The translations under genes and the position numbers were made by a program. This document shows positions 29,350 through 48,779 of a stretch of DNA of 49,646 nt, piece by piece. The DNA lies in IMG/VR virus record IMGVR_UViG_2740892231_000005; one strand, 5' to 3'. The first letter of the stretch is position 1. Every line of letters begins with the position of its first letter. The DNA is from a virus (taxonomy: Duplodnaviria > Heunggongvirae > Uroviricota > Caudoviricetes). The notes under the pieces are model-generated. The model was not told the origin of the DNA and did not search any database. It worked only from the letters and a program-made list of their open reading frames with translations.

Positions 29350-29425
29350 GAGAGTGAATTGGTGGCCCCTACCGGATTTGAACCGATGACCGTGCGATTA
29401 TGAGTCGCCTGCTCTAACCACTGAG
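29350..29425 (-). tRNA. tRNA with CAU anticodon (Ile2/ileX-like, or Met)
   Basis: 76 nt; cloverleaf folds by hand (acceptor GGCCCCT/AGGGGCC, D-stem GCTC/GAGC, T-stem ATCGG/CCGGT, CCA end); one mismatch at the top of the anticodon stem. Confidence 0.8.
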
Positions 29426-29604
29426 CTAAGGGGCCATATTTGATCTGTTTGTCTGGTGTGGCGCCGCGCACGAAAATCCCAGCCAATAAATTCAGGATTT
29501 TTGGGCGCGGCGGCATATCAGACAAACATGGTTGATGCATGCGCTAATGAGAAAAGCGCATAGAATGTTGTAACTATATATTTATATAATTATAGAAATA
29601 TATA

Positions 29605-40506: not shown

Positions 40507-40528
40507 AAAAAAGGCCCCCGAAGGGGCC
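40507..40528 (-). terminator. Intrinsic terminator hairpin (ggccccc-gaa-ggggcc) with U-run on the minus strand; possibly bidirectional
   Basis: A6 run on the plus strand 40507..40512 immediately 5' of the stem. Confidence 0.55.
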
Positions 40529-40537
40529 TAATCGCTA

Positions 40538-40660
40538 CTTGCTGCTAATGTTTATCGTCACATTCAGAGCGTTATCAGTAATCTTCCAACCCTCCCCATG
40601 TGGCGTAAACAAAGCTCCAGTAACAACGATAAAAATACACATACAGTATTTTTTCATTGT
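40538..40660 (-). CDS. Small ORF (40 aa, MKKYCMCIFIVVTGALFTPHGEGWKITDNALNVTINISSK) with signal-peptide-like N-terminus
   Basis: Hand-translated; AAGGG RBS 6 nt upstream; terminator directly downstream. Confidence 0.3.
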
Positions 40661-41054
40661 ATGGCCCTTACAGGCCGTTTCACGGCATCCCCACCGACGA
40701 AAACAACGCGAGAGCAAGCACGGCTGCTTGTGCTTGCATGTACGGCAACGGAGAATCCTCCCCTAAAGTCGGTGCCCGGGTGCGAATCGGCGGGAAGGTC
40801 CACAGGTATTTTACGATTATTTTAAGATTAGTAATAGGAAAGAAATTAAACGAAAAAACTCGTTTATTTTCACAAAATCAGTAACCTACCCACAATCTGT
40901 GAGTTTGCAGGCACAACAAGAACCACAATTTTTTGAAGCATAATAGTGGACTATTATTACCTTTTGGGTAAAATTAACTTGCTGCTTGTGCTTGCGTGGT
41001 TGTTTATACAACAACGTAATGCTGAAAGGACCGCGAATCCGATCAGCACGAAAG

Positions 41055-41789: not shown

Positions 41790-42081
41790 TAGTCTGTTAA
41801 AATCCGCCGTATTGACATGAATGCGTCATTGGTGGACACTTTCCGAGCCGTAGCAAAATCTACGGTCGGGATTGGCGTCCCGATTGCACAATGGCGCATA
41901 CCGCGTTAGCGGTTTTTTTATGCGTAAAGCACTGCTACACCCAAATTATGGTGGGGCGTGCGGGGGCGGAGAAATCCGCGCCGGGTTTGTCATTGTGCCG
42001 GTTACGCCAACCCTGTACGTCTCACCACCATATTGATTGGCGTCATTGGTGGTGATAGTTCCTTTAATCGGAGATATCACA

Positions 42082-42273
42082 ATGACAAACCTACCCCATG
42101 ACTATTACGTCAACCTCGTAAAGATCCTTCTCAAGAAAGCCTCATACGCCGATAAATTCCGCCTGGCTGAAATCATCGAGCGCGAAGCTATGCGCATCGC
42201 CAGCAACGATAACGCTGTTTCTGACGCAAAAATCTCCCTCGTAACCAAAGTTGTTATGGGAGGTGCAAAATGA
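42082..42273 (+). CDS. Small protein upstream of, and translationally coupled to, the antirepressor gene (icd-like position)
   Basis: 63 aa from MTNLPHDYY with GGAGA RBS; its stop overlaps the ant start (ATGA). Confidence 0.45.
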   Translation: MTNLPHDYYVNLVKILLKKASYADKFRLAEIIEREAMRIASNDNAVSDAKISLVTKVVMGGAK

Positions 42274-43421
42274 AAACGCTTCCGACCGTTAACACCCTAC
42301 AGCCTATCCTGCATAATCAGATTCCAGTAATCACAACTGAGCTACTCGCCCGCCTTTATGGAACAGAAGCAATCCGTATACAGCAAAATCACCATGAAAA
42401 TAAAACTCGGTTCATTGAGGGGAAGCACTTCTTTAAAGCTGTTGGTGATGAACTCAAAAATTTGCGACTAGTTTTAAACGAGTCACAAAATGAGGTGCAA
42501 ATTTCCCCCAAAACTCGCTCTCTCATCCTCTGGACAGAACGCGGGGCTGCACGTCACGCCAAAATGCTTGAAACTAACCAAGCGTGGGATGTGTTCGAAC
42601 GGCTGGAAGACTGCTATTTCAACCAGAACGCGCAAACGGCCGCGACCGTAACCGTCTCGCCAAACAATGCTCGTGAGGTTGTCGATACGCTCAACGCCAA
42701 ACCGATGTTTTACATTAAGGTGTGCAACAACGAGCCACTCACAACCTCAGCCGATGTTGCCCAGGCATTCAGCACCACAAACAATTCCATCGTTATGGCC
42801 ATCGATGCGTTACGCATTCCTCGCACAGCTGCGGCACGTCATTTCTTTAAAGAGCAACGACCGCTGGAAGGAAGCGACCGCGAAATAACAATCTATCGCA
42901 TGACAAAAGACGGATTTACCTTGCTCATGGAAAGTATCGACGGTCCAGGCGTGAAAGATATCAAGCTGGCCTACATTGAAGCCTTTAACGCTATCAGCAG
43001 CGTGTTAAAAACACAGTACGAGCGTGATCTGGCTAAACGACTGTACCAGGAAAAAACGATTATCCGCGCGGCAACAGAGCATAATCGGCTATTAACGGAA
43101 CCGAACTACAGGAAGGAACTAATCAAGGAGTTTGACAAGGCAACAGGGAAAACCAAAGCGGCGCTAAATCTGCCAGCAATGACTCAGGAAAATGTGATAT
43201 CAGCCTTACTTCTTGATCTGCTCAGAAACGCCAGAGCACTTATCAGCTTTGACGAAAACCTGAATCCTCAGCTCAAGCTACTACCACCGACAGGCAAAGT
43301 AGTCGACCAAGCTGATCACAACAGCATACTCAGCGTTCTGGATGCAAACCTGCCAGCCAGGACACTACAGGATCTGATAAAAACATGTGCTGATAAGCTG
43401 GCACAGAAAAGCAGACCATAA
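42270..43421 (+). CDS. Antirepressor-like protein (ORF6N/Rha-type N-terminal domains)
   Basis: 383 aa; two N-terminal segments resembling ORF6N/Rha-type antirepressor domains (PVITTELLARLYGTEAIRIQQNHHENKTRFIEGKHFF). Confidence 0.7.
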   Translation: MKTLPTVNTLQPILHNQIPVITTELLARLYGTEAIRIQQNHHENKTRFIEGKHFFKAVGDELKNLRLVLNESQNEVQISPKTRSLILWTERGAARHAKMLETNQAWDVFERLEDCYFNQNAQTAATVTVSPNNAREVVDTLNAKPMFYIKVCNNEPLTTSADVAQAFSTTNNSIVMAIDALRIPRTAAARHFFKEQRPLEGSDREITIYRMTKDGFTLLMESIDGPGVKDIKLAYIEAFNAISSVLKTQYERDLAKRLYQEKTIIRAATEHNRLLTEPNYRKELIKEFDKATGKTKAALNLPAMTQENVISALLLDLLRNARALISFDENLNPQLKLLPPTGKVVDQADHNSILSVLDANLPARTLQDLIKTCADKLAQKSRP

Positions 43422-43455: not shown

Positions 43456-44157
43456 CTTATCAACACCAGAGACTTTCTGAAAATCCTTTCGAATAGCGTC
43501 AGCGTCACGCGCCAAGCCCATACTGGAACGTGTCGCCATATGACGAAAATGATCAACTGCCGGAAACAAAGAAATAATGGACCCAATAGCTTGCAGCAAA
43601 CTCGCTTTTCTACGCATCATAATTCCACCATAACCGATAACCACCCTTCAGACACAACCCCCCCTCCCCCCATACAGGGTGCCCTTTACCGGAGTTCCGG
43701 CCCCTTCTCAAAAGCATCAAAAAAAGCTCGAGATAGAGTACCGGAACTCATGCCACCAGATAGCTCCACATCGTTTCCAATGCTTCGCCGCCGTGTGCGC
43801 CCTGTGGCCCACAATCATGCCATTGGTCGTCTGATATACCTTCTTCTGCTCATAGAGCACAGGCGAGTTGTCGCACTCCTGCCTTTCTCAGACTCGACTT
43901 AGTTTAGATCGCTGTTCCTGGCTTGCGTCAGCACACTTTCCCCTTGTACGCATACCCGCGCGCCACTTCGCCCAAAAACACCGAACCCAACGAAGTGGCA
44001 AAGACAACGACGCGAGCGTGAGTCTGAAATGGGCACCAGTAAAAAAGGGGTTGCAGGCGCAAAAAGATTTGATTATCTTTAGACGCAAGAAAGCCGCCCC
44101 AATCAAGAGGTGTCTTTTTAAATCCAGCCTACCAAGCAAGATTTAAATTTCAGACTG

Positions 44158-44185
44158 AAAACCGCCCGGCAAGGCGGTTTTTGTC
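44158..44185. terminator. Bidirectional terminator-like hairpin (aaaccgcc-cggcaa-ggcggttt plus T-run)
   Basis: Seen in sequence; downstream of the minus-strand XRE gene and at the end of an ORF-poor region. Confidence 0.55.
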
Positions 44186-44230: not shown

Positions 44231-44503
44231 TCATTTGATCCCTTGTTCCAATTCTGCCGACACTTTAACCTTTTCCCATACAAGGGTTTGCAGCCTTAAC
44301 AGAATCGCATCTTTATCAAGGTGTGAAAGATCCTTAACCATATCGTCAAACGACAGAACGCGAATGGCCATCTCAATGACCCTCGGCGGCTCCCCCTTCT
44401 CATATCGCTTATATGTAGCCAACGATATCCCAAACTCTTCGGCTGCTCGCTCCTGCGTCCAGTTCATCCCACGACGCCATAATTTCAATTCGTAACCCGT
44501 CAT
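44231..44503 (-). CDS. XRE-family HTH regulator
   Basis: 90 aa; HTH (WTQERAAEEFGISLATYKRYEKG). Confidence 0.7.
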   Translation of the reverse strand: MTGYELKLWRRGMNWTQERAAEEFGISLATYKRYEKGEPPRVIEMAIRVLSFDDMVKDLSHLDKDAILLRLQTLVWEKVKVSAELEQGIK

Positions 44504-44604
44504 TACATCCTCTACCTTTCCCTAGATATTCAATAAATTAGACATAGCCACTCACGACAAAATAAGATGTATTAACAATCCAATCTTTAGGCTTTAGGTA
44601 AAAA

Positions 44605-45030
44605 ATGAGTTCATCTGCTTTTGTCACCGTGGTCACTGGTGTAAGTGTTTTTGTTCTAGGCCAACTCATCGTCAAAGGAGCTATTGAGCCTTACATTTCA
44701 TTCAGGGAACAACTAGGGAAAATATCCAATCTGTTATTATGTAACCAAGCAAAAATAGTGAATCCTGGCTCGAACTTAAAGCCAGAAATCATTCATGATC
44801 TAAAAGATTCCGCAGCACAGTTAATGGCGAAATATTCCACTTTACCTTTCTATATCAAAAAGTTACATATCGGCTTTCGTCTTGTTCCATCAGCCACCGA
44901 GATTCTTGGGGCAGCTCAAAATTTGAACTATATAGCGTCAATACATGAAGGTAAGACTGGGGAGAATCCATCTAAGCATCTCGAAGAGATTGGCCATATG
45001 CTCAAAATACCAACTACCTATTCAAGCTAA
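44605..45030 (+). CDS. Hypothetical protein with N-terminal transmembrane segment; AT-rich gene
   Basis: 141 aa; hydrophobic N-terminus (AFVTVVTGVSVFVLGQLIV); visibly lower GC than its neighbours (by eye). Confidence 0.5.
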   Translation: MSSSAFVTVVTGVSVFVLGQLIVKGAIEPYISFREQLGKISNLLLCNQAKIVNPGSNLKPEIIHDLKDSAAQLMAKYSTLPFYIKKLHIGFRLVPSATEILGAAQNLNYIASIHEGKTGENPSKHLEEIGHMLKIPTTYSS

Positions 45031-45133
45031 CCCAATGTAAGTTATCGGCTTGCCCCACAATAAGTTATCTATCTTCAAACGCCCCCTATATTAACACTCG
45101 CAAAGTGTCAAAATGACACTTTGCGCATTGTGT

Positions 45134-45514
45134 TTACTTAACGAGGAATAAAAATGGTTTATTGTTCGGCGGTGTAATCGGGGCTGGCTCGCTTTTGCTC
45201 ATGCGATCAGTGTACCAGGCCAACTCCTTGTCAAAGTAAGCCTGATTAAAATAGGCCATGAATGTAGTTTCAAATCCATAACGACCGCTAATACGCAGCA
45301 TCTGATTGCCGTTCTCTGTTTCCAGATATACCTGGGCACGTTCCTGATTCTCCTTCAGCCAGGTTAAAGCCTCATCGCATGAGGACACACGATACTCATC
45401 ATCGTAGCAGTCATCGATGCGGCTTGAGGAAGAACGGCAAATCACGCCAACAGAACCAGCCAGGATAGTTTGAATTTTAAGGAAAGCGTTTTTGCGGATT
45501 TTAATCATGCTCAT
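45134..45514 (-). CDS. Hypothetical protein, first gene downstream of promoter cassette copy 3
   Basis: 126-aa ORF with the conserved leader and RBS upstream. Confidence 0.5.
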   Translation of the reverse strand: MSMIKIRKNAFLKIQTILAGSVGVICRSSSSRIDDCYDDEYRVSSCDEALTWLKENQERAQVYLETENGNQMLRISGRYGFETTFMAYFNQAYFDKELAWYTDRMSKSEPAPITPPNNKPFLFLVK

Positions 45515-45635: not shown

Positions 45636-45662
45636 CAAAAAAGCCCCTTTGCAACAGGGGCT
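45636..45662 (-). terminator. Intrinsic terminator downstream of the HigBA-like operon
   Basis: Minus strand: agcccct-loop-aggggct followed by a U-run. Confidence 0.6.
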
Positions 45663-45677
45663 TATCATTCGTTCTGA

Positions 45678-45977
45678 TCAGATGTTAAACGCTATTCGTT
45701 TTCCTGTGGGAAGCTCAACATCCAGGCTTAATTTGCCTCCCATAGCTTCAACGTAACGCTTTAATGTCGCCAGCTTTAAATCATTTCCGCGCTGCTCCAG
45801 CTTTGTTACTGCTGGCTGGCTTATACCCATCGCCTCAGCAACCTGTTTTTGTGATAACTGGAGTTCTTCACGCATCATCTGCAAGCCGACCTCAAGAATC
45901 ATCTCATCTGCCATTTCTTTAATTCGCGCCTGGCTTTCCGGTGAACGGCTGGCAATCGCCTCATCTAATGTTCTCAT
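45678..45977 (-). CDS. HigA-like antitoxin (XRE HTH)
   Basis: 99 aa; HTH (LSQKQVAEAMGISQPAVTKLEQ); immediately downstream of, and overlapping, the toxin gene. Confidence 0.75.
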   Translation of the reverse strand: MRTLDEAIASRSPESQARIKEMADEMILEVGLQMMREELQLSQKQVAEAMGISQPAVTKLEQRGNDLKLATLKRYVEAMGGKLSLDVELPTGKRIAFNI

Positions 45978-46330
45978 TACTTGCTCTCCAGTGTGTTCAG
46001 ATGTGCTGCAAACTCATCCTCAGCTATACGCACCAGTTTTTCATAAAACCGCTTATCGTTACTTTTGTCTCCTGCACAAAGAACGATGGCCCGGCGAATC
46101 GGATCGAACGCATAAAAGGCTCTTATCGGACGGCCAGAAAACTGAACGCGAAGCTCTTTCATATTTTTGTACCGAGAACCTTTTACGGTATCGGCATATG
46201 GCCTGGGTAACTCAGGTCCGTAAACCTGTAGCTTTTTCAAATCAGCCAAAACCTTTTCCTGAAGAGCGTCTTCTTGCTCATTTAGCCAGTCGTCAAATCG
46301 CTGGCTAAAAAGTACCGTCCACATGCTCAA
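45977..46330 (-). CDS. RelE/ParE-superfamily toxin, HigB-like (toxin-first operon)
   Basis: 117 aa; size, basic character and toxin-antitoxin gene order typical of HigB/HigA modules. Confidence 0.7.
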   Translation of the reverse strand: MSMWTVLFSQRFDDWLNEQEDALQEKVLADLKKLQVYGPELPRPYADTVKGSRYKNMKELRVQFSGRPIRAFYAFDPIRRAIVLCAGDKSNDKRFYEKLVRIAEDEFAAHLNTLESK

Positions 46331-46568: not shown

Positions 46569-46859
46569 CTATTTTTGTGACTTTACTCCTGGCATATGGA
46601 CTTCCCAGCGACGAATCCCCATAGCTGCGCAAAAATCAGCCACATAATTCAATCCCGCCCATTCGCGGATACCACCACGGGCTTTTTCAATGAAAACGGC
46701 AATCCCTTTTTTATTGAGAGCAAAAAGCCGCCAGCTTTTTGTCACTTCGTCCTGGGTAGCCACAACACAAGTGAAAGCTCCCATGCGATACAGGTCCAAG
46801 AACTCTTTGCGTGTTTTGCGTACAAGTTCCATAACAAACCTCATATTTGCATGTTTCAA
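46569..46859 (-). CDS. Hypothetical protein
   Basis: 96-aa ORF; 4-bp overlap with the upstream ORF. Confidence 0.35.
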   Translation of the reverse strand: MKHANMRFVMELVRKTRKEFLDLYRMGAFTCVVATQDEVTKSWRLFALNKKGIAVFIEKARGGIREWAGLNYVADFCAAMGIRRWEVHMPGVKSQK

Positions 46860-47155
46860 ACATCTGTTTTGTTATCAATGAAGATTAACCCTAACCCAGC
46901 GAAGTAACACAGCAGCGCCCAGGCTGCATACGGAATGCTGGATCTGGATGTGGACTCCTTTAACATCTGCCAGTTGCGAACATTGCGACTATCTTTTAAG
47001 CCAAGTTTTTTGGCCAACTGCGAGCCGCTCATTCCGGTCAGGCCAATGACTGCCCGAACTTCTCCACATGTAGGAGATTCCCATTCATCCGCTTTTTTTA
47101 AACAAGCCGGATTCAACATTTTTAAAACAGTATCTTTATCCATAACCATCTCCAT
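46856..47155 (-). CDS. Hypothetical protein with HTH-like segment
   Basis: 99 aa; GLTGMSGSQLAKKLGL. Confidence 0.4.
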   Translation of the reverse strand: MEMVMDKDTVLKMLNPACLKKADEWESPTCGEVRAVIGLTGMSGSQLAKKLGLKDSRNVRNWQMLKESTSRSSIPYAAWALLCYFAGLGLIFIDNKTDV

Positions 47156-47786: not shown

Positions 47787-48779
47787 TTAATGTTGGAGTG
47801 ATTTCCAGGTCTTTCTTAGCCTGTTATAACGCTGCTCAACGAGGGAGCGTAAATATGCAAGGTCAGCACCAGGATACATGCCATCAGCAAATTCCTGGCT
47901 AACCTCTCTAGTGATTTGATGGCGAAGTTCGGCCTCTCCCTTTTCCTGAACAAGACGCGCAGCTCTCTCCGCTGCTTTCTGTTTTGCCTTTATCTCTCTG
48001 GCCGTCTTCCTCTGACGCCATACATTCTCCATCTGCTCCTGAATAACAATACGCTTATAATCAGCCTCCGTTATCGCTTTTTTAAGCCGTTCGCTATTCT
48101 TCGCATTGAAGTAATTAAGTTTCTGGCTAACCGCACGTCTCCATGCTTGTTCAGTAATACCAACTGTTTCCAGCAGTTGATCACGAATCTCGATTTTCGC
48201 TGGCCAATACTGTTTATTCACCCGATCCCAGCGACGTTCATAATCAATAAAACCTAACTCTTTCAGTTGCGACAACGCCCTTGTACAGCGCGTTATAGAC
48301 TTGTTCCCAGCTTCGGATACGGTAGACAGGCCGCAAAAATCAGCCAACGCCTCAGCACTGGCCAGAACCCGCTTAGAAATGATGTTTACATGGTGCAAAA
48401 TCGCAGCAATCACAGCATTAATCGCCCGACGACGATGCTCGTTTATCCGGCGTTTCCGCTCTGACGGTTGATTAACGTAGAACGCAACCTCACACGTAAG
48501 ATCACGACCATTAATGCGCTGTAAAGCATCAGATAACACCAGCGGCAGCTTGTGCGTATGGTGCTTTGGAGGCTGGAACTCCGGCGACAAATTACAAACG
48601 TAAGCTGAACGTAGAGACGGCATTGGTCTATCCATATGTTCGCTCTTGCGTCCACGGAAAACCAACGTATAATGGGAGTTGTCGAGGCGCCCATGGTTAG
48701 TTGTTGGTTTTCCTTTCCGTGGATGTCGCAAGAAGCCCGCAGATTTATCTGCGGGCTTTTTGTTTCCATATCTGGTCAC
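47787..48779 (-). CDS. repA: Plasmid replication initiator, IncFII RepA1-like
   Basis: 330 aa; SITRCTRALSQLKELGFIDYERRWD resembles the recalled RepA1 segment SITRATRALTFLSELGLITYQTEYD. Confidence 0.75.
   Translation of the reverse strand: MTRYGNKKPADKSAGFLRHPRKGKPTTNHGRLDNSHYTLVFRGRKSEHMDRPMPSLRSAYVCNLSPEFQPPKHHTHKLPLVLSDALQRINGRDLTCEVAFYVNQPSERKRRINEHRRRAINAVIAAILHHVNIISKRVLASAEALADFCGLSTVSEAGNKSITRCTRALSQLKELGFIDYERRWDRVNKQYWPAKIEIRDQLLETVGITEQAWRRAVSQKLNYFNAKNSERLKKAITEADYKRIVIQEQMENVWRQRKTAREIKAKQKAAERAARLVQEKGEAELRHQITREVSQEFADGMYPGADLAYLRSLVEQRYNRLRKTWKSLQH

What the first reader, a model, noticed from the sequence alone, without database searches (positions are those of the whole stretch)
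44231..45030. AT-rich membrane-protein gene divergently paired with an XRE regulator
The 141-aa protein has an N-terminal transmembrane segment and visibly lower GC than its surroundings; it is divergent from a 90-aa XRE HTH gene and bounded by terminators. Compositional atypicality plus regulator pairing suggests a horizontally acquired cargo gene, possibly abortive infection, exclusion or toxin-like.
Basis: partly seen in the sequence, partly recalled or inferred. Interest (0 to 1): 0.5.

Follow-up and report, generated by a model that had tools for sequence, protein, structure and literature searches.

The report
Mobile membrane-protein cassette in a phage-plasmid
A small membrane-protein gene of unknown function, carrying its own promoter, has been inserted between two resident genes of a plasmid-like prophage; the regulator gene next to it is only a chance neighbour, and the protein's role (perhaps protection against other phages) is untested.

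Summary
They comprise a 90-aa XRE gene (44231-44503, minus), a divergent 141-aa gene (44605-45030, plus) with one N-terminal transmembrane helix, and hairpin terminators on both sides. The GC dip is modest and not unusual for this window (39.4% against 44.4%; z = -1.1 among the window's genes).

The window is a ~49-kb phage-plasmid. Among 62 close relatives in PLSDB, 12 carry the 141-aa gene. Most of the rest have 8 bp where this window has a 575-bp promoter-bearing cassette (44513-45087). Two Yersinia phages carry a 318-bp MITE at the same spot.

The XRE gene is present with or without the cassette. Homologues of the 141-aa gene on other phage-plasmids, conjugative plasmids and chromosomal islands never sit next to an XRE gene. 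"Acquired cargo gene" is therefore strongly supported, and "regulator pairing" is not.

The protein belongs to phrog_7512, a family of unknown function that matches nothing in Pfam, NCBIfam or PADLOC. The family has 705 cluster representatives across several phyla and is under purifying selection. The confident model shows a sequence-conserved transmembrane helix running into a four-helix bundle.

Neighbours elsewhere include toxin-antitoxin pairs, Abi_2, a retron-type reverse transcriptase, an Avs-like ATPase, a dGTPase and recombinases. A stand-alone exclusion or defence role is the best guess (about 35-40%), and it is untested.

The parts
44156..44183 (.). Backbone hairpin terminator (A-run, stem, T-run; could act in both directions). 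It lies downstream of the XRE gene and of the plus-strand ant region.
   Evidence: 11 pairs, 5 GC, T-run. Identical in Yersinia phage vB_YpM_41.
44231..44503 (-). 90-aa XRE-family HTH gene. It is a backbone gene of the phage-plasmid, not part of the cassette.
   Evidence: HTH_3 E 6e-7, HTH_31 E 4e-6. phrog_6962 E 1.5e-45. Weak RstR-like match. Present in relatives with an empty site. Split into two fragments in p142_C.
44504..44512 (-). Ribosome-binding region of the XRE gene (reverse complement GAGGATGTA). It is retained, with 2 differences, in alleles with and without the cassette.
   Evidence: Alignment A4: window CAT|TACATCCTC against empty allele CAT|AGCATCCTC.
44513..45087 (+). Variable segment (575 bp, 38.8% GC) forming the acquired cassette: promoter, 141-aa gene and a 57-bp tail. 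The empty allele has 8 bp (CTCGCACA) here.
   Evidence: Alignments A1 and A4. 12 of 62 PLSDB relatives carry it; the others span 1134 bp instead of 1701 bp.
44520..44538 (+). Decayed remnant (CCCTAGATATTCAA..TAAAT, about 9 bp shorter) of a 27-bp dyad site, CCTGGACGTTCAGGTNATTCTGTCCAG. In other plasmids this site abuts the gene's -35 box.
   Evidence: Alignment A5. Site copies in other loci.
44539..44568 (+). Sigma-70-type promoter of the 141-aa gene: TAGACA, 18 bp, TAAGAT.
   Evidence: Consensus scan. The same -35 TAGACA and -10 TAGGAT/TAAGAT are conserved upstream of homologues in D6, pETEC_35 and Salmonella plasmids, although the flanking DNA is unrelated.
44596..44598 (+). Shine-Dalgarno AGG, 6 nt before the ATG.
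   Evidence: Read directly from the sequence. TAGGT is conserved in the homologous loci.
44605..45030 (+). 141-aa gene of the phrog_7512 family. It has an N-terminal transmembrane helix (codons 5-23 = 44617-44673) that continues into a four-helix bundle, and a C-terminal IPTTYS motif.
   Evidence: phrog_7512 E 2.8e-74. dN/dS 0.12-0.46. AlphaFold pLDDT 93.1, pTM 0.84. Hydropathy and charge analysis.
45099..45125 (.). Backbone hairpin (12-bp perfect stem). On the plus strand it is followed by a T-rich tail and can terminate the 141-aa transcript. On the minus strand it lies between the 126-aa gene and the XRE gene.
   Evidence: I4. Present in the empty allele and in the MITE allele.
45134..45514 (-). 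126-aa backbone gene (phrog_8090, unknown function). In the empty allele it is the immediate upstream neighbour of the XRE gene.

Best explanation
Shown:
- The 141-aa ORF is a genuine gene under purifying selection. It belongs to a widespread, uncharacterised family (phrog_7512).
- It sits in a 575-bp cassette that carries its own conserved sigma-70 promoter.
- The cassette is inserted, in opposite orientation, between two co-directional backbone genes (the 126-aa gene and the XRE gene). This is a hot spot in the accessory region of a ~49-kb phage-plasmid.
- The XRE gene is not its partner. The divergent arrangement is a by-product of the insertion.
- The family is a stand-alone gene with no conserved neighbour. 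In E. coli it is almost exclusively plasmid-borne.

Predicted:
- The protein has one transmembrane helix whose sequence is conserved across phyla (T8, G12, V13, F16, G/S19, Q20, then K24, E/D28, P29). This helix continues into a four-helix bundle.
- By the positive-inside rule the short acidic or neutral N-terminus faces out and the bundle is cytoplasmic.

Inferred, as the most likely mechanism:
- It is a moron-type lysogenic-conversion gene, expressed from its own promoter in the plasmid-prophage state.
- It acts at the inner membrane to protect the carrier cell and element against competing phages or mobile elements.
- It could do so by blocking DNA entry (superinfection exclusion). Alternatively it could sense infection through the cytoplasmic bundle and oligomerise through the small/polar face of the transmembrane helix, damaging the membrane (abortive infection).
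For: Cassette and hot spot: searches show three alleles (cassette, 8 bp, MITE) at one site with ~98-99% identical flanks.

Own promoter: conserved across unrelated contexts.

Real gene: dN/dS 0.12-0.46. There are 705 representatives at E <= 1e-3, all about 140-150 aa. All 54 diverse members match phrog_7512.

No conserved partner: all-against-all comparison of neighbours in 22 loci links only the gene itself across distant loci.

Mobile-element habitat: 336 of 340 places in complete E. coli genomes are on plasmids. 347 PLSDB plasmids carry it, as does phage D6 between humD and phd/doc.

Defence or addiction neighbourhood:
- Phd/ParE, RHH/RelE, phd/doc and HigBA-like pairs.
- Abi_2 directly upstream in two Salmonella plasmids.
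- A retron-type reverse transcriptase in Pseudomonas (E 3e-69), an Avs4-like STAND ATPase in Halomonas (E 1e-16) and a dGTPase in Desulfosarcina (E 5.5e-57), all.
- PD-Lambda-3 A/B in one further locus.
- Integrases, resolvases and IS transposases.

Structure and topology. The N-flank has 0.15 K+R and net charge -0.43; the C-flank has 2.9 K+R. Conserved transmembrane residues are listed.

Lower GC than the surrounding locus in 14 of 15 other loci.
Against: - No homology to any of 5027 PADLOC models, for the window protein or for 54 family members.
- No Pfam or NCBIfam family.
- Guilt by association is anecdotal: roughly 5 of 17 contexts, with no background rate computed.
- Plasmid accessory regions hold many kinds of genes, so lying near toxin-antitoxin genes may only reflect a shared insertion-tolerant region.
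- Expression, topology, oligomerisation and any phenotype are untested.
Confidence: 0.4

Rival explanations
1. The XRE protein and the 141-aa protein form a two-gene module (regulator plus toxic or abortive-infection effector, or antitoxin plus toxin). The XRE protein represses the divergent promoter.
For: Divergent geometry with a 101-bp spacer containing the effector's promoter. XRE-family proteins often regulate or neutralise neighbouring effectors (general knowledge). The XRE protein gives weak matches to MqsA, HipB and RstR models.
Against: The XRE gene is present, essentially unchanged, in about 47 relatives without the gene, where it follows the 126-aa gene. No homologue elsewhere has an XRE neighbour. 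XRE homologues in other phages lack a phrog_7512 neighbour. No inverted-repeat operator is evident in the spacer. The promoter travels with the gene, not with the XRE gene.
Confidence: 0.07
2. A plasmid or prophage establishment or maintenance factor with no defence role. It would be one of several small genes switched by an element-wide repressor that binds a repeated operator next to the -35 box, by analogy with ArdK/KorA regulons of conjugative plasmids.
For: In Salmonella, Citrobacter, Pantoea and pETEC_35 plasmids the gene's -35 box abuts a 27-bp dyad site. That site recurs 3-6 times per 12 kb, always in the same orientation, in front of or between other small genes, and it occurs in at least 635 PLSDB plasmids. 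ArdK-type repressors bind repeats adjacent to -35 boxes of establishment genes (PMC9723621, PMC6289460). The gene lies near rep, par and toxin-antitoxin modules.
Against: The site is not the IncN CUP element: R46 has no copy at <= 7 mismatches. The window's copy of the site is decayed. The family also occurs in chromosomal islands of Pseudomonas, Halomonas, Desulfosarcina and Verrucomicrobia that lack this site and sit next to defence-type genes. A downstream copy of the site follows the stop codon, which fits a cassette boundary at least as well as an operator.
Confidence: 0.2
3. A membrane protein that changes host physiology (envelope stress, transport modulation, or anchoring of a host protein), or a nearly neutral hitch-hiker kept by frequent transfer.
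For: No functional signature at all. The fold is a generic four-helix bundle. Neighbours are heterogeneous and include metabolic genes.
Against: Purifying selection. Sequence-level conservation of the transmembrane helix across phyla argues for a specific interaction. Strong bias to plasmids and islands. A conserved promoter travels with the gene.
Confidence: 0.2
4. A lysis-timing protein (holin or antiholin) of the phage-plasmid.
For: A small protein with one N-terminal transmembrane helix.
Against: The element's holins and endolysin are encoded elsewhere, in a lysis cluster (annotation of the near-identical pMS21199B). The gene is absent from about 3/4 of relatives, including plaque-forming Yersinia phages. 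Most homologues are on non-phage plasmids.
Confidence: 0.03

Closest known systems
Phage 'morons' (promoter-gene-terminator units inserted between backbone genes of otherwise syntenic temperate phages, as first described for lambdoid phages such as HK97 and HK022; from my own knowledge)
   Same: Presence/absence polymorphism between near-identical genomes. Its own promoter. Flanked by terminators. Orientation independent of the surrounding operon. Lower GC than its immediate neighbours. Unrelated to virion or replication functions.
   Different: The downstream terminator belongs to the backbone, not to the insert. The GC deviation is not significant across the whole element. The same gene is far more common on plasmids than on phages.
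phrog_7512 / Escherichia phage D6 orf109 (YP_009914786.1) / WP_016240784.1
   Same: Full-length HMM match (E 2.8e-74). 71% amino-acid identity to D6 orf109 and 100% over the aligned residues 18-141 to the protein of 12 E. coli plasmids.
   Different: Nothing is known about these proteins; all are annotated as hypothetical. The D6 copy lies between humD and phd/doc, with no XRE gene.
Membrane-anchored superinfection-exclusion proteins of prophages (for example lactococcal Sie2009-type proteins with an N-terminal anchor, and T4 Imm and Sp; from my own knowledge)
   Same: Small, prophage-borne, single-gene and membrane-anchored. Expected to be expressed in the lysogen from its own promoter.
   Different: No sequence or specific fold similarity. 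The predicted topology puts the bundle in the cytoplasm, whereas several Sie proteins act on the outer face. No phenotype is known.
Lin2004 (PDB 2huj), Tar-type four-helix-bundle sensor domains, and cytochrome b562 or designed bundles
   Different: Not significant, with 6-15% identity. These proteins have no N-terminal anchor of this kind. 2huj itself has no known function.
ArdK/KorA-controlled promoter sets (CUP elements) of IncN and IncW plasmids (PMC6289460, PMC9723621)
   Same: In other plasmids the gene's -35 box is preceded by a repeated site that recurs before several small genes, as ArdK operators do.
   Different: The 27-bp site is absent from R46. It is dyad-symmetric rather than a TTGACA direct repeat. 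It also follows stop codons. No cognate binding protein has been identified. The window's copy is decayed.

Membership tests
phrog_7512 (unknown function) | Full-length match to the family HMM | tested here: met
   E 2.8e-74, residues 1-141 against profile 1-141. All 54 diverse relatives also match.
Phage moron / accessory cassette | Present in some and absent from other otherwise collinear, near-identical genomes, with sharp boundaries | tested here: met
   12 of 62 plasmids carry it. The empty allele has 8 bp and the MITE allele is seen in vB_YpM_41/44. Boundaries are at 44513 and 45087.
Phage moron / accessory cassette | Own promoter inside the insert | tested here: met
   TAGACA-18-TAAGAT at 44539-44568. 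Conserved in unrelated contexts. Its activity has not been measured.
Phage moron / accessory cassette | Own terminator inside the insert | tested here: not met
   No hairpin in 45031-45087. The nearest terminator (45099-45125) is backbone DNA, also present in the empty allele.
Phage moron / accessory cassette | Atypical base composition | tested here: inconclusive
   39.4% against a 44.4% window mean and 45-47% for neighbours, but z = -1.1 and 17th percentile. Lower than the locus in 14 of 15 other loci.
XRE-regulated effector pair / type II toxin-antitoxin | Conserved co-occurrence and adjacency of the two genes across genomes | tested here: not met
   The XRE gene is present without the 141-aa gene in about 47 relatives. 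The 141-aa gene occurs without an XRE gene in all other contexts.
XRE-regulated effector pair / type II toxin-antitoxin | Toxicity of the effector relieved by the partner | not testable with these tools
   Needs expression experiments.
Known anti-phage defence systems (PADLOC-DB v2) | HMM match to a component of a described system | tested here: not met
   No hit at E <= 0.1 for the protein. Only scattered single hits (best E 0.0045, one member each) among 54 relatives.
Known anti-phage defence systems (guilt by association) | Enrichment next to known defence genes | tested here: inconclusive
   Abi_2, retron-type RT, Avs4-like, dGTPase and PD-Lambda-3 lie within about 5 kb in roughly 5 of 17 contexts. 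No background rate was computed.
Superinfection-exclusion membrane proteins | Inner-membrane localisation | tested here: met
   One strong transmembrane helix, residues 5-23, hydropathy 2.23. This is a prediction only.
Superinfection-exclusion membrane proteins | Blocks infection by other phages when expressed from the prophage | not testable with these tools
   Needs phage challenge assays.
Holin / antiholin | Located in the lysis cluster next to the endolysin and universally present in the phage lineage | tested here: not met
   The lysis cluster (two holins plus a GH108 endolysin) is elsewhere in the element. The gene is absent from most relatives.
ArdK/CUP regulon of IncN plasmids | CUP/ArdK operator upstream | tested here: not met
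   R46 has no copy of the 27-bp site at <= 7 mismatches. The window has only a decayed remnant.

The most novel reading that the evidence does not exclude
phrog_7512 would be a new, widespread, single-gene, membrane-anchored anti-phage or anti-plasmid system. In this reading the cytoplasmic four-helix bundle senses an invader and the conserved transmembrane helix oligomerises to block entry or collapse the membrane. On enterobacterial plasmids the gene would move as one of many single-gene cassettes bounded by a 27-bp dyad site, forming an integron-like exchange system for accessory and defence genes that has not been described.
Probability: 0.25. Interest if true: 0.65.

Novelty: new member of a known kind. 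Interest (0 to 1): 0.35.

Why it matters
This is a clean natural example of gene flow between phage-plasmids, conjugative plasmids and chromosomal islands. One promoter-bearing gene is found in a 49-kb myovirus-type phage-plasmid, in P1-like D6 elements, in IncF- and IncX-like plasmids, and (as distant relatives) in Pseudomonas, Halomonas, Desulfosarcina and Verrucomicrobia.

The family is large. It has 705 representatives at 50% clustering, and 6% of complete E. coli genomes carry a copy. It is under selection, models confidently, and is absent from Pfam, NCBIfam and PADLOC. That makes it a reasonable candidate for a defence or exclusion screen.

If the function is ordinary, the finding remains a routine accessory gene at a phage hot spot.

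Tried and rejected
- Pfam, NCBIfam, PADLOC and PHROGs scans of the protein and of 54 relatives gave only phrog_7512, which has no known function.
- PDB sequence searches with the single protein and with the family profile gave nothing below E 0.016.
- A search for a conserved partner gene across 22 loci found none.
- A 159-aa neighbour with the same architecture (transmembrane helix plus helical domain) on pMS7163A and an O157 plasmid shows no detectable homology (hhalign probability 0.3).
- No operator or flanking-repeat candidate in the window was convincing. A 14-nt complement between the -10 region and codons 3-7 is probably not in the transcript.
- I tested whether the 27-bp plasmid site is the IncN CUP/ArdK element. 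It is not: R46 has no copies.
- A LexA-box reading of CTGTCCAGTAGACAG was rejected because the spacing is N9 rather than N10 (read from the sequence).
- Literature searches for the protein accession and for hot spots in this phage-plasmid group found nothing on this gene.
- The search for related loci with the broad alignment failed because it had no conserved stretch. A narrower alignment worked.

Full report
**The element.** The window is a ~49-kb phage-plasmid.
- It encodes contractile-tail structural genes, terminase, portal, holins and an endolysin. These are seen in the PGAP annotation of the near-identical E. coli plasmid pMS21199B.
- It also encodes an IncFII-type RepA (47787-48779, PF02387 E 5.5e-44) and a ParA.
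- It is ~98% identical in the region of interest to Yersinia phages vB_YpM_39/41/44 and to 62 plasmids of 46-52 kb from Escherichia, Salmonella and Klebsiella.
- The finding lies in an accessory stretch between a P1 immI-like module and repA. The immI-like module comprises isrK and C4 antisense RNAs followed by a 78-aa ORF and an ORF6N/Rha antirepressor.
- That stretch also holds a HigB/Gp49-type toxin with its HTH antitoxin (45678-46330) and other small genes.

**Checking the observation.** The two ORFs, their divergent arrangement and the 101-bp spacer are as described.
- The 90-aa protein is an XRE-type HTH protein.
- The 141-aa protein has one strong hydrophobic segment (residues 5-23, Kyte-Doolittle 2.23).
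- Hairpin terminators flank the pair at 44156-44183 and 45099-45125. The region has 6 terminator-like sites against 1.8 +/- 1.4 in shuffles.
- The GC claim is only partly borne out. The gene is 39.4% GC, against 44.4% for the window and 45-47% for its neighbours. However, it ranks 11th lowest of 61 genes (z = -1.1, 17th percentile of sliding windows).
- The tail and head genes of the same element are AT-richer still.

**What it is: a cassette at a hot spot.**
- Alignment with vB_YpM_41 and with the E. coli ATCC 25922 plasmid shows near-identity up to the XRE start codon and its ribosome-binding region (to 44512), and again from 45088.
- Between these points the window has 575 bp, the ATCC 25922 plasmid has 8 bp (CTCGCACA), and vB_YpM_41/44 have a 318-bp element.
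- Of the 62 PLSDB relatives, 12 carry the 575-bp segment. Nearly all the others show the 1134-bp span of the empty allele.
- In the empty allele the 126-aa gene and the XRE gene are co-directional neighbours 63 bp apart, downstream of the HigBA-like pair.
- The 141-aa gene is therefore an insertion in opposite orientation between two backbone genes. The divergent pairing with the XRE gene is a consequence of where it landed.
- The XRE gene is retained without the cassette. In one relative it is split into two fragments.

**The cassette carries its own promoter.** TAGACA-18-TAAGAT (44539-44568) is not remarkable as a consensus match: the region has 2 such sites against 3.8 expected. What supports it is conservation. 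The same -35 and -10 boxes and the TAGGT ribosome-binding site are conserved upstream of homologues in phage D6, pETEC_35 and Salmonella plasmids, while the DNA further out is unrelated. DNA-level similarity to other E. coli replicons covers only the gene and about 10-15 bp upstream. The 57 bp after the stop codon contain no hairpin. The first terminator is the backbone hairpin at 45099-45125.

**The protein.**
- It matches phrog_7512 (unknown function) end to end (E 2.8e-74). It matches nothing in Pfam, NCBIfam or PADLOC.
- Close relatives (56-82% identity) are confined to Enterobacterales.
- An exhaustive profile search finds 705 representatives at E <= 1e-3 and 125 at E <= 1e-10, almost all 140-150 aa. 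They come from Gammaproteobacteria, Desulfobacterota and Verrucomicrobiota.
- None of 54 diverse members hits a Pfam or PADLOC family convincingly.
- Pairwise dN/dS among seven enterobacterial alleles is 0.12-0.46.
- With the 54-sequence alignment, AlphaFold gives pLDDT 93.1 and pTM 0.84. The model has one helix from residue 2 to 46 that spans the membrane segment and continues into an up-down four-helix bundle.
- The transmembrane helix is conserved at the sequence level across phyla: T8 49/54, G12 51/54, V13 49/54, F/Y16 52/54, G/S19 52/54, Q20 51/54, followed by K24, E/D28 and invariant P29. This argues for a specific helix-helix contact rather than a mere anchor.
- The N-terminal tail is 3-4 residues long with almost no K or R (mean net charge -0.43). 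The 17 residues after the helix carry 2.9 K+R on average. By the positive-inside rule this predicts N-out/C-in, so the bundle would be cytoplasmic. That is an inference.

**Context elsewhere.** The gene is a loner.
- In D6 it lies between humD and phd/doc.
- In pETEC_35 it lies between repA and an RHH/RelE pair.
- In Salmonella plasmids it lies after Phd/ParE or directly after an Abi_2 gene.
- On pMS7163A and an O157 plasmid it is divergent from an unrelated 159-aa protein (transmembrane helix plus helical domain) and precedes a 500-aa protein and DinQ-like toxins.
- All-against-all comparison of neighbours in 22 loci finds no family shared across distant loci other than the gene itself.
- In complete E. 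coli genomes, 333 of 5426 carry a homologue, and 336 of 340 places are on plasmids.
- Around distant chromosomal homologues there are integrases, resolvases and IS transposases.
- Several defence-type genes also occur there:
  - a retron-type reverse transcriptase about 1.9 kb upstream in Pseudomonas cremoricolorata;
  - an Avs4-like 1611-aa STAND ATPase upstream in Halomonas cupida;
  - a dGTPase 0.85 kb downstream in Desulfosarcina;
  - PD-Lambda-3 A/B in another locus.
- The homologue is lower in GC than its locus in 14 of 15 cases.

**Mechanism.** The cassette structure, the independence from the XRE gene, selection, the membrane helix and the fold are shown or well predicted. The function is inferred. 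The most likely reading is a moron-type lysogenic-conversion gene that works alone at the inner membrane against competing phages or mobile elements. The reasoning combines five observations:
- it is a stand-alone gene with its own promoter;
- it lives on plasmids and prophages;
- it lies next to addiction, Abi and defence genes;
- its transmembrane helix is conserved with a small/polar face;
- its bundle, predicted to be cytoplasmic, is of a kind that often serves as a sensor or interaction module.

I give this about 35-40%. The main rival (about 20%) is a non-defence establishment or maintenance role under an element-wide repressor. A generic physiological or neutral role is similar (about 20%). 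The XRE-pair model is about 7% and a lysis role about 3%.

**A lead from the related plasmids.**
- In Salmonella, Citrobacter, Pantoea and pETEC_35 plasmids the gene is bounded on both sides by a 27-bp dyad site, CCTGGACGTTCAGGTNATTCTGTCCAG. The site is preceded by a semi-conserved TTAATYCCYCGC motif.
- There are 3-6 copies per 12 kb, all in one orientation. They separate other single genes, such as Abi_2 and an 84-aa ORF.
- No copy occurs in shuffled 50-kb sequence at a looser threshold.
- The upstream copy abuts the -35 box. The gene's stop codon lies in the left flank of the downstream copy.
- The site occurs in at least 635 PLSDB plasmids, including pKpQIL-type plasmids.
- It is not the IncN CUP/ArdK operator, because R46 has none.
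- It could be an operator of a plasmid-wide regulator or a recombination site of a cassette system; I could not decide between these.
- The window keeps only a decayed, shortened remnant upstream (44520-44538) and nothing recognisable downstream.

**Verdict.** It is an ordinary kind of thing (an accessory cassette at a phage-plasmid hot spot) encoding a member of a large, uncharacterised, confidently modelled membrane-protein family. Interest is moderate to low unless a defence or exclusion phenotype is found.

Noticed in passing
L001 (Yersinia phage vB_YpM_41) 6608-6925; insertion point corresponds to window ~44504-44512: At the same hot spot, vB_YpM_41 and vB_YpM_44 carry a 318-bp non-coding element. 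It has ~30-bp terminal inverted repeats starting GGGGTTCCGTGGG and a 5-bp target duplication (ATAGC), so it looks like a Tn3-family-type MITE. It separates the XRE gene from its ribosome-binding site. Megablast finds 457 places in 166 complete E. coli genomes, 446 of them on plasmids.
   Followed up: partly
L010-L015, L018, L019, L003 (for example L010 5939-5965, 6457-6483, 6985-7011): A 27-bp dyad-symmetric site, CCTGGACGTTCAGGTNATTCTGTCCAG, repeats 3-6 times per 12 kb in one orientation and bounds single-gene units (the phrog_7512 gene, Abi_2, small ORFs) on enterobacterial plasmids. It occurs in at least 635 PLSDB plasmids and is absent from IncN R46. It may be an operator or a cassette recombination site.
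   Followed up: partly
window 41847-42032 (+) and 42037-43421 (+): isrK (67 bits) and C4 antisense RNA (72 bits) lie directly upstream of a 78-aa ORF and a 383-aa ORF6N/Rha antirepressor. This layout resembles the P1 immI module (c4-icd-ant).
   Followed up: partly
window 40507-40803 (-): Full-length ryfA RNA match (142 bits; gathering score 80) on the phage-plasmid.
   Followed up: no
window 45678-46330 (-): A HigB/Gp49-type toxin (117 aa, PF05973 E 6e-23) overlaps its HTH antitoxin (99 aa). This is a type II toxin-antitoxin pair next to the hot spot, with its own terminator at 45641-45663.
   Followed up: partly
window 43650-44150: About 500 bp with no convincing ORF, lying between a 70-aa ORF and the terminator. 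GC is 50-54% with a strongly negative GC skew (-0.29 to -0.33). It is conserved in vB_YpM_41. No Rfam match at gathering threshold.
   Followed up: no
window 46569-47155 (-): Two overlapping small genes (99 aa, then 96 aa). The first gives a weak HTH / 'mobile mystery protein A' match (E 1e-4). This may be another two-gene addiction or regulatory module.
   Followed up: no
L017 (E. coli p142_C) 1832-2069: The XRE gene is annotated as two fragments (46 aa and 31 aa), so it is apparently disrupted in this relative. This suggests the XRE gene is dispensable for the element.
   Followed up: no
L030 3380-3859 and L031 3391-3870: On pMS7163A (a large sit-operon plasmid) and a 42.6-kb O157 plasmid, the homologue is divergent from a 159-aa protein of the same architecture (acidic N-terminus, one transmembrane helix, helical domain). 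That protein shows no detectable homology to the family (hhalign probability 0.3). A 500-aa protein and DinQ-like type I toxins follow.
   Followed up: partly
L008 1963-2757, L018 4850-5665, L019 4526-5335: A ~265-270-aa protein beginning M..YHYTDLN lies next to the homologue in three unrelated contexts (a metagenome contig, a Citrobacter plasmid and Pantoea), on either side. It has no Pfam hit at E <= 1e-3.
   Followed up: partly
window 29360-29435 (-): A tRNA-Met (CAT) gene is carried by the phage-plasmid.
   Followed up: no
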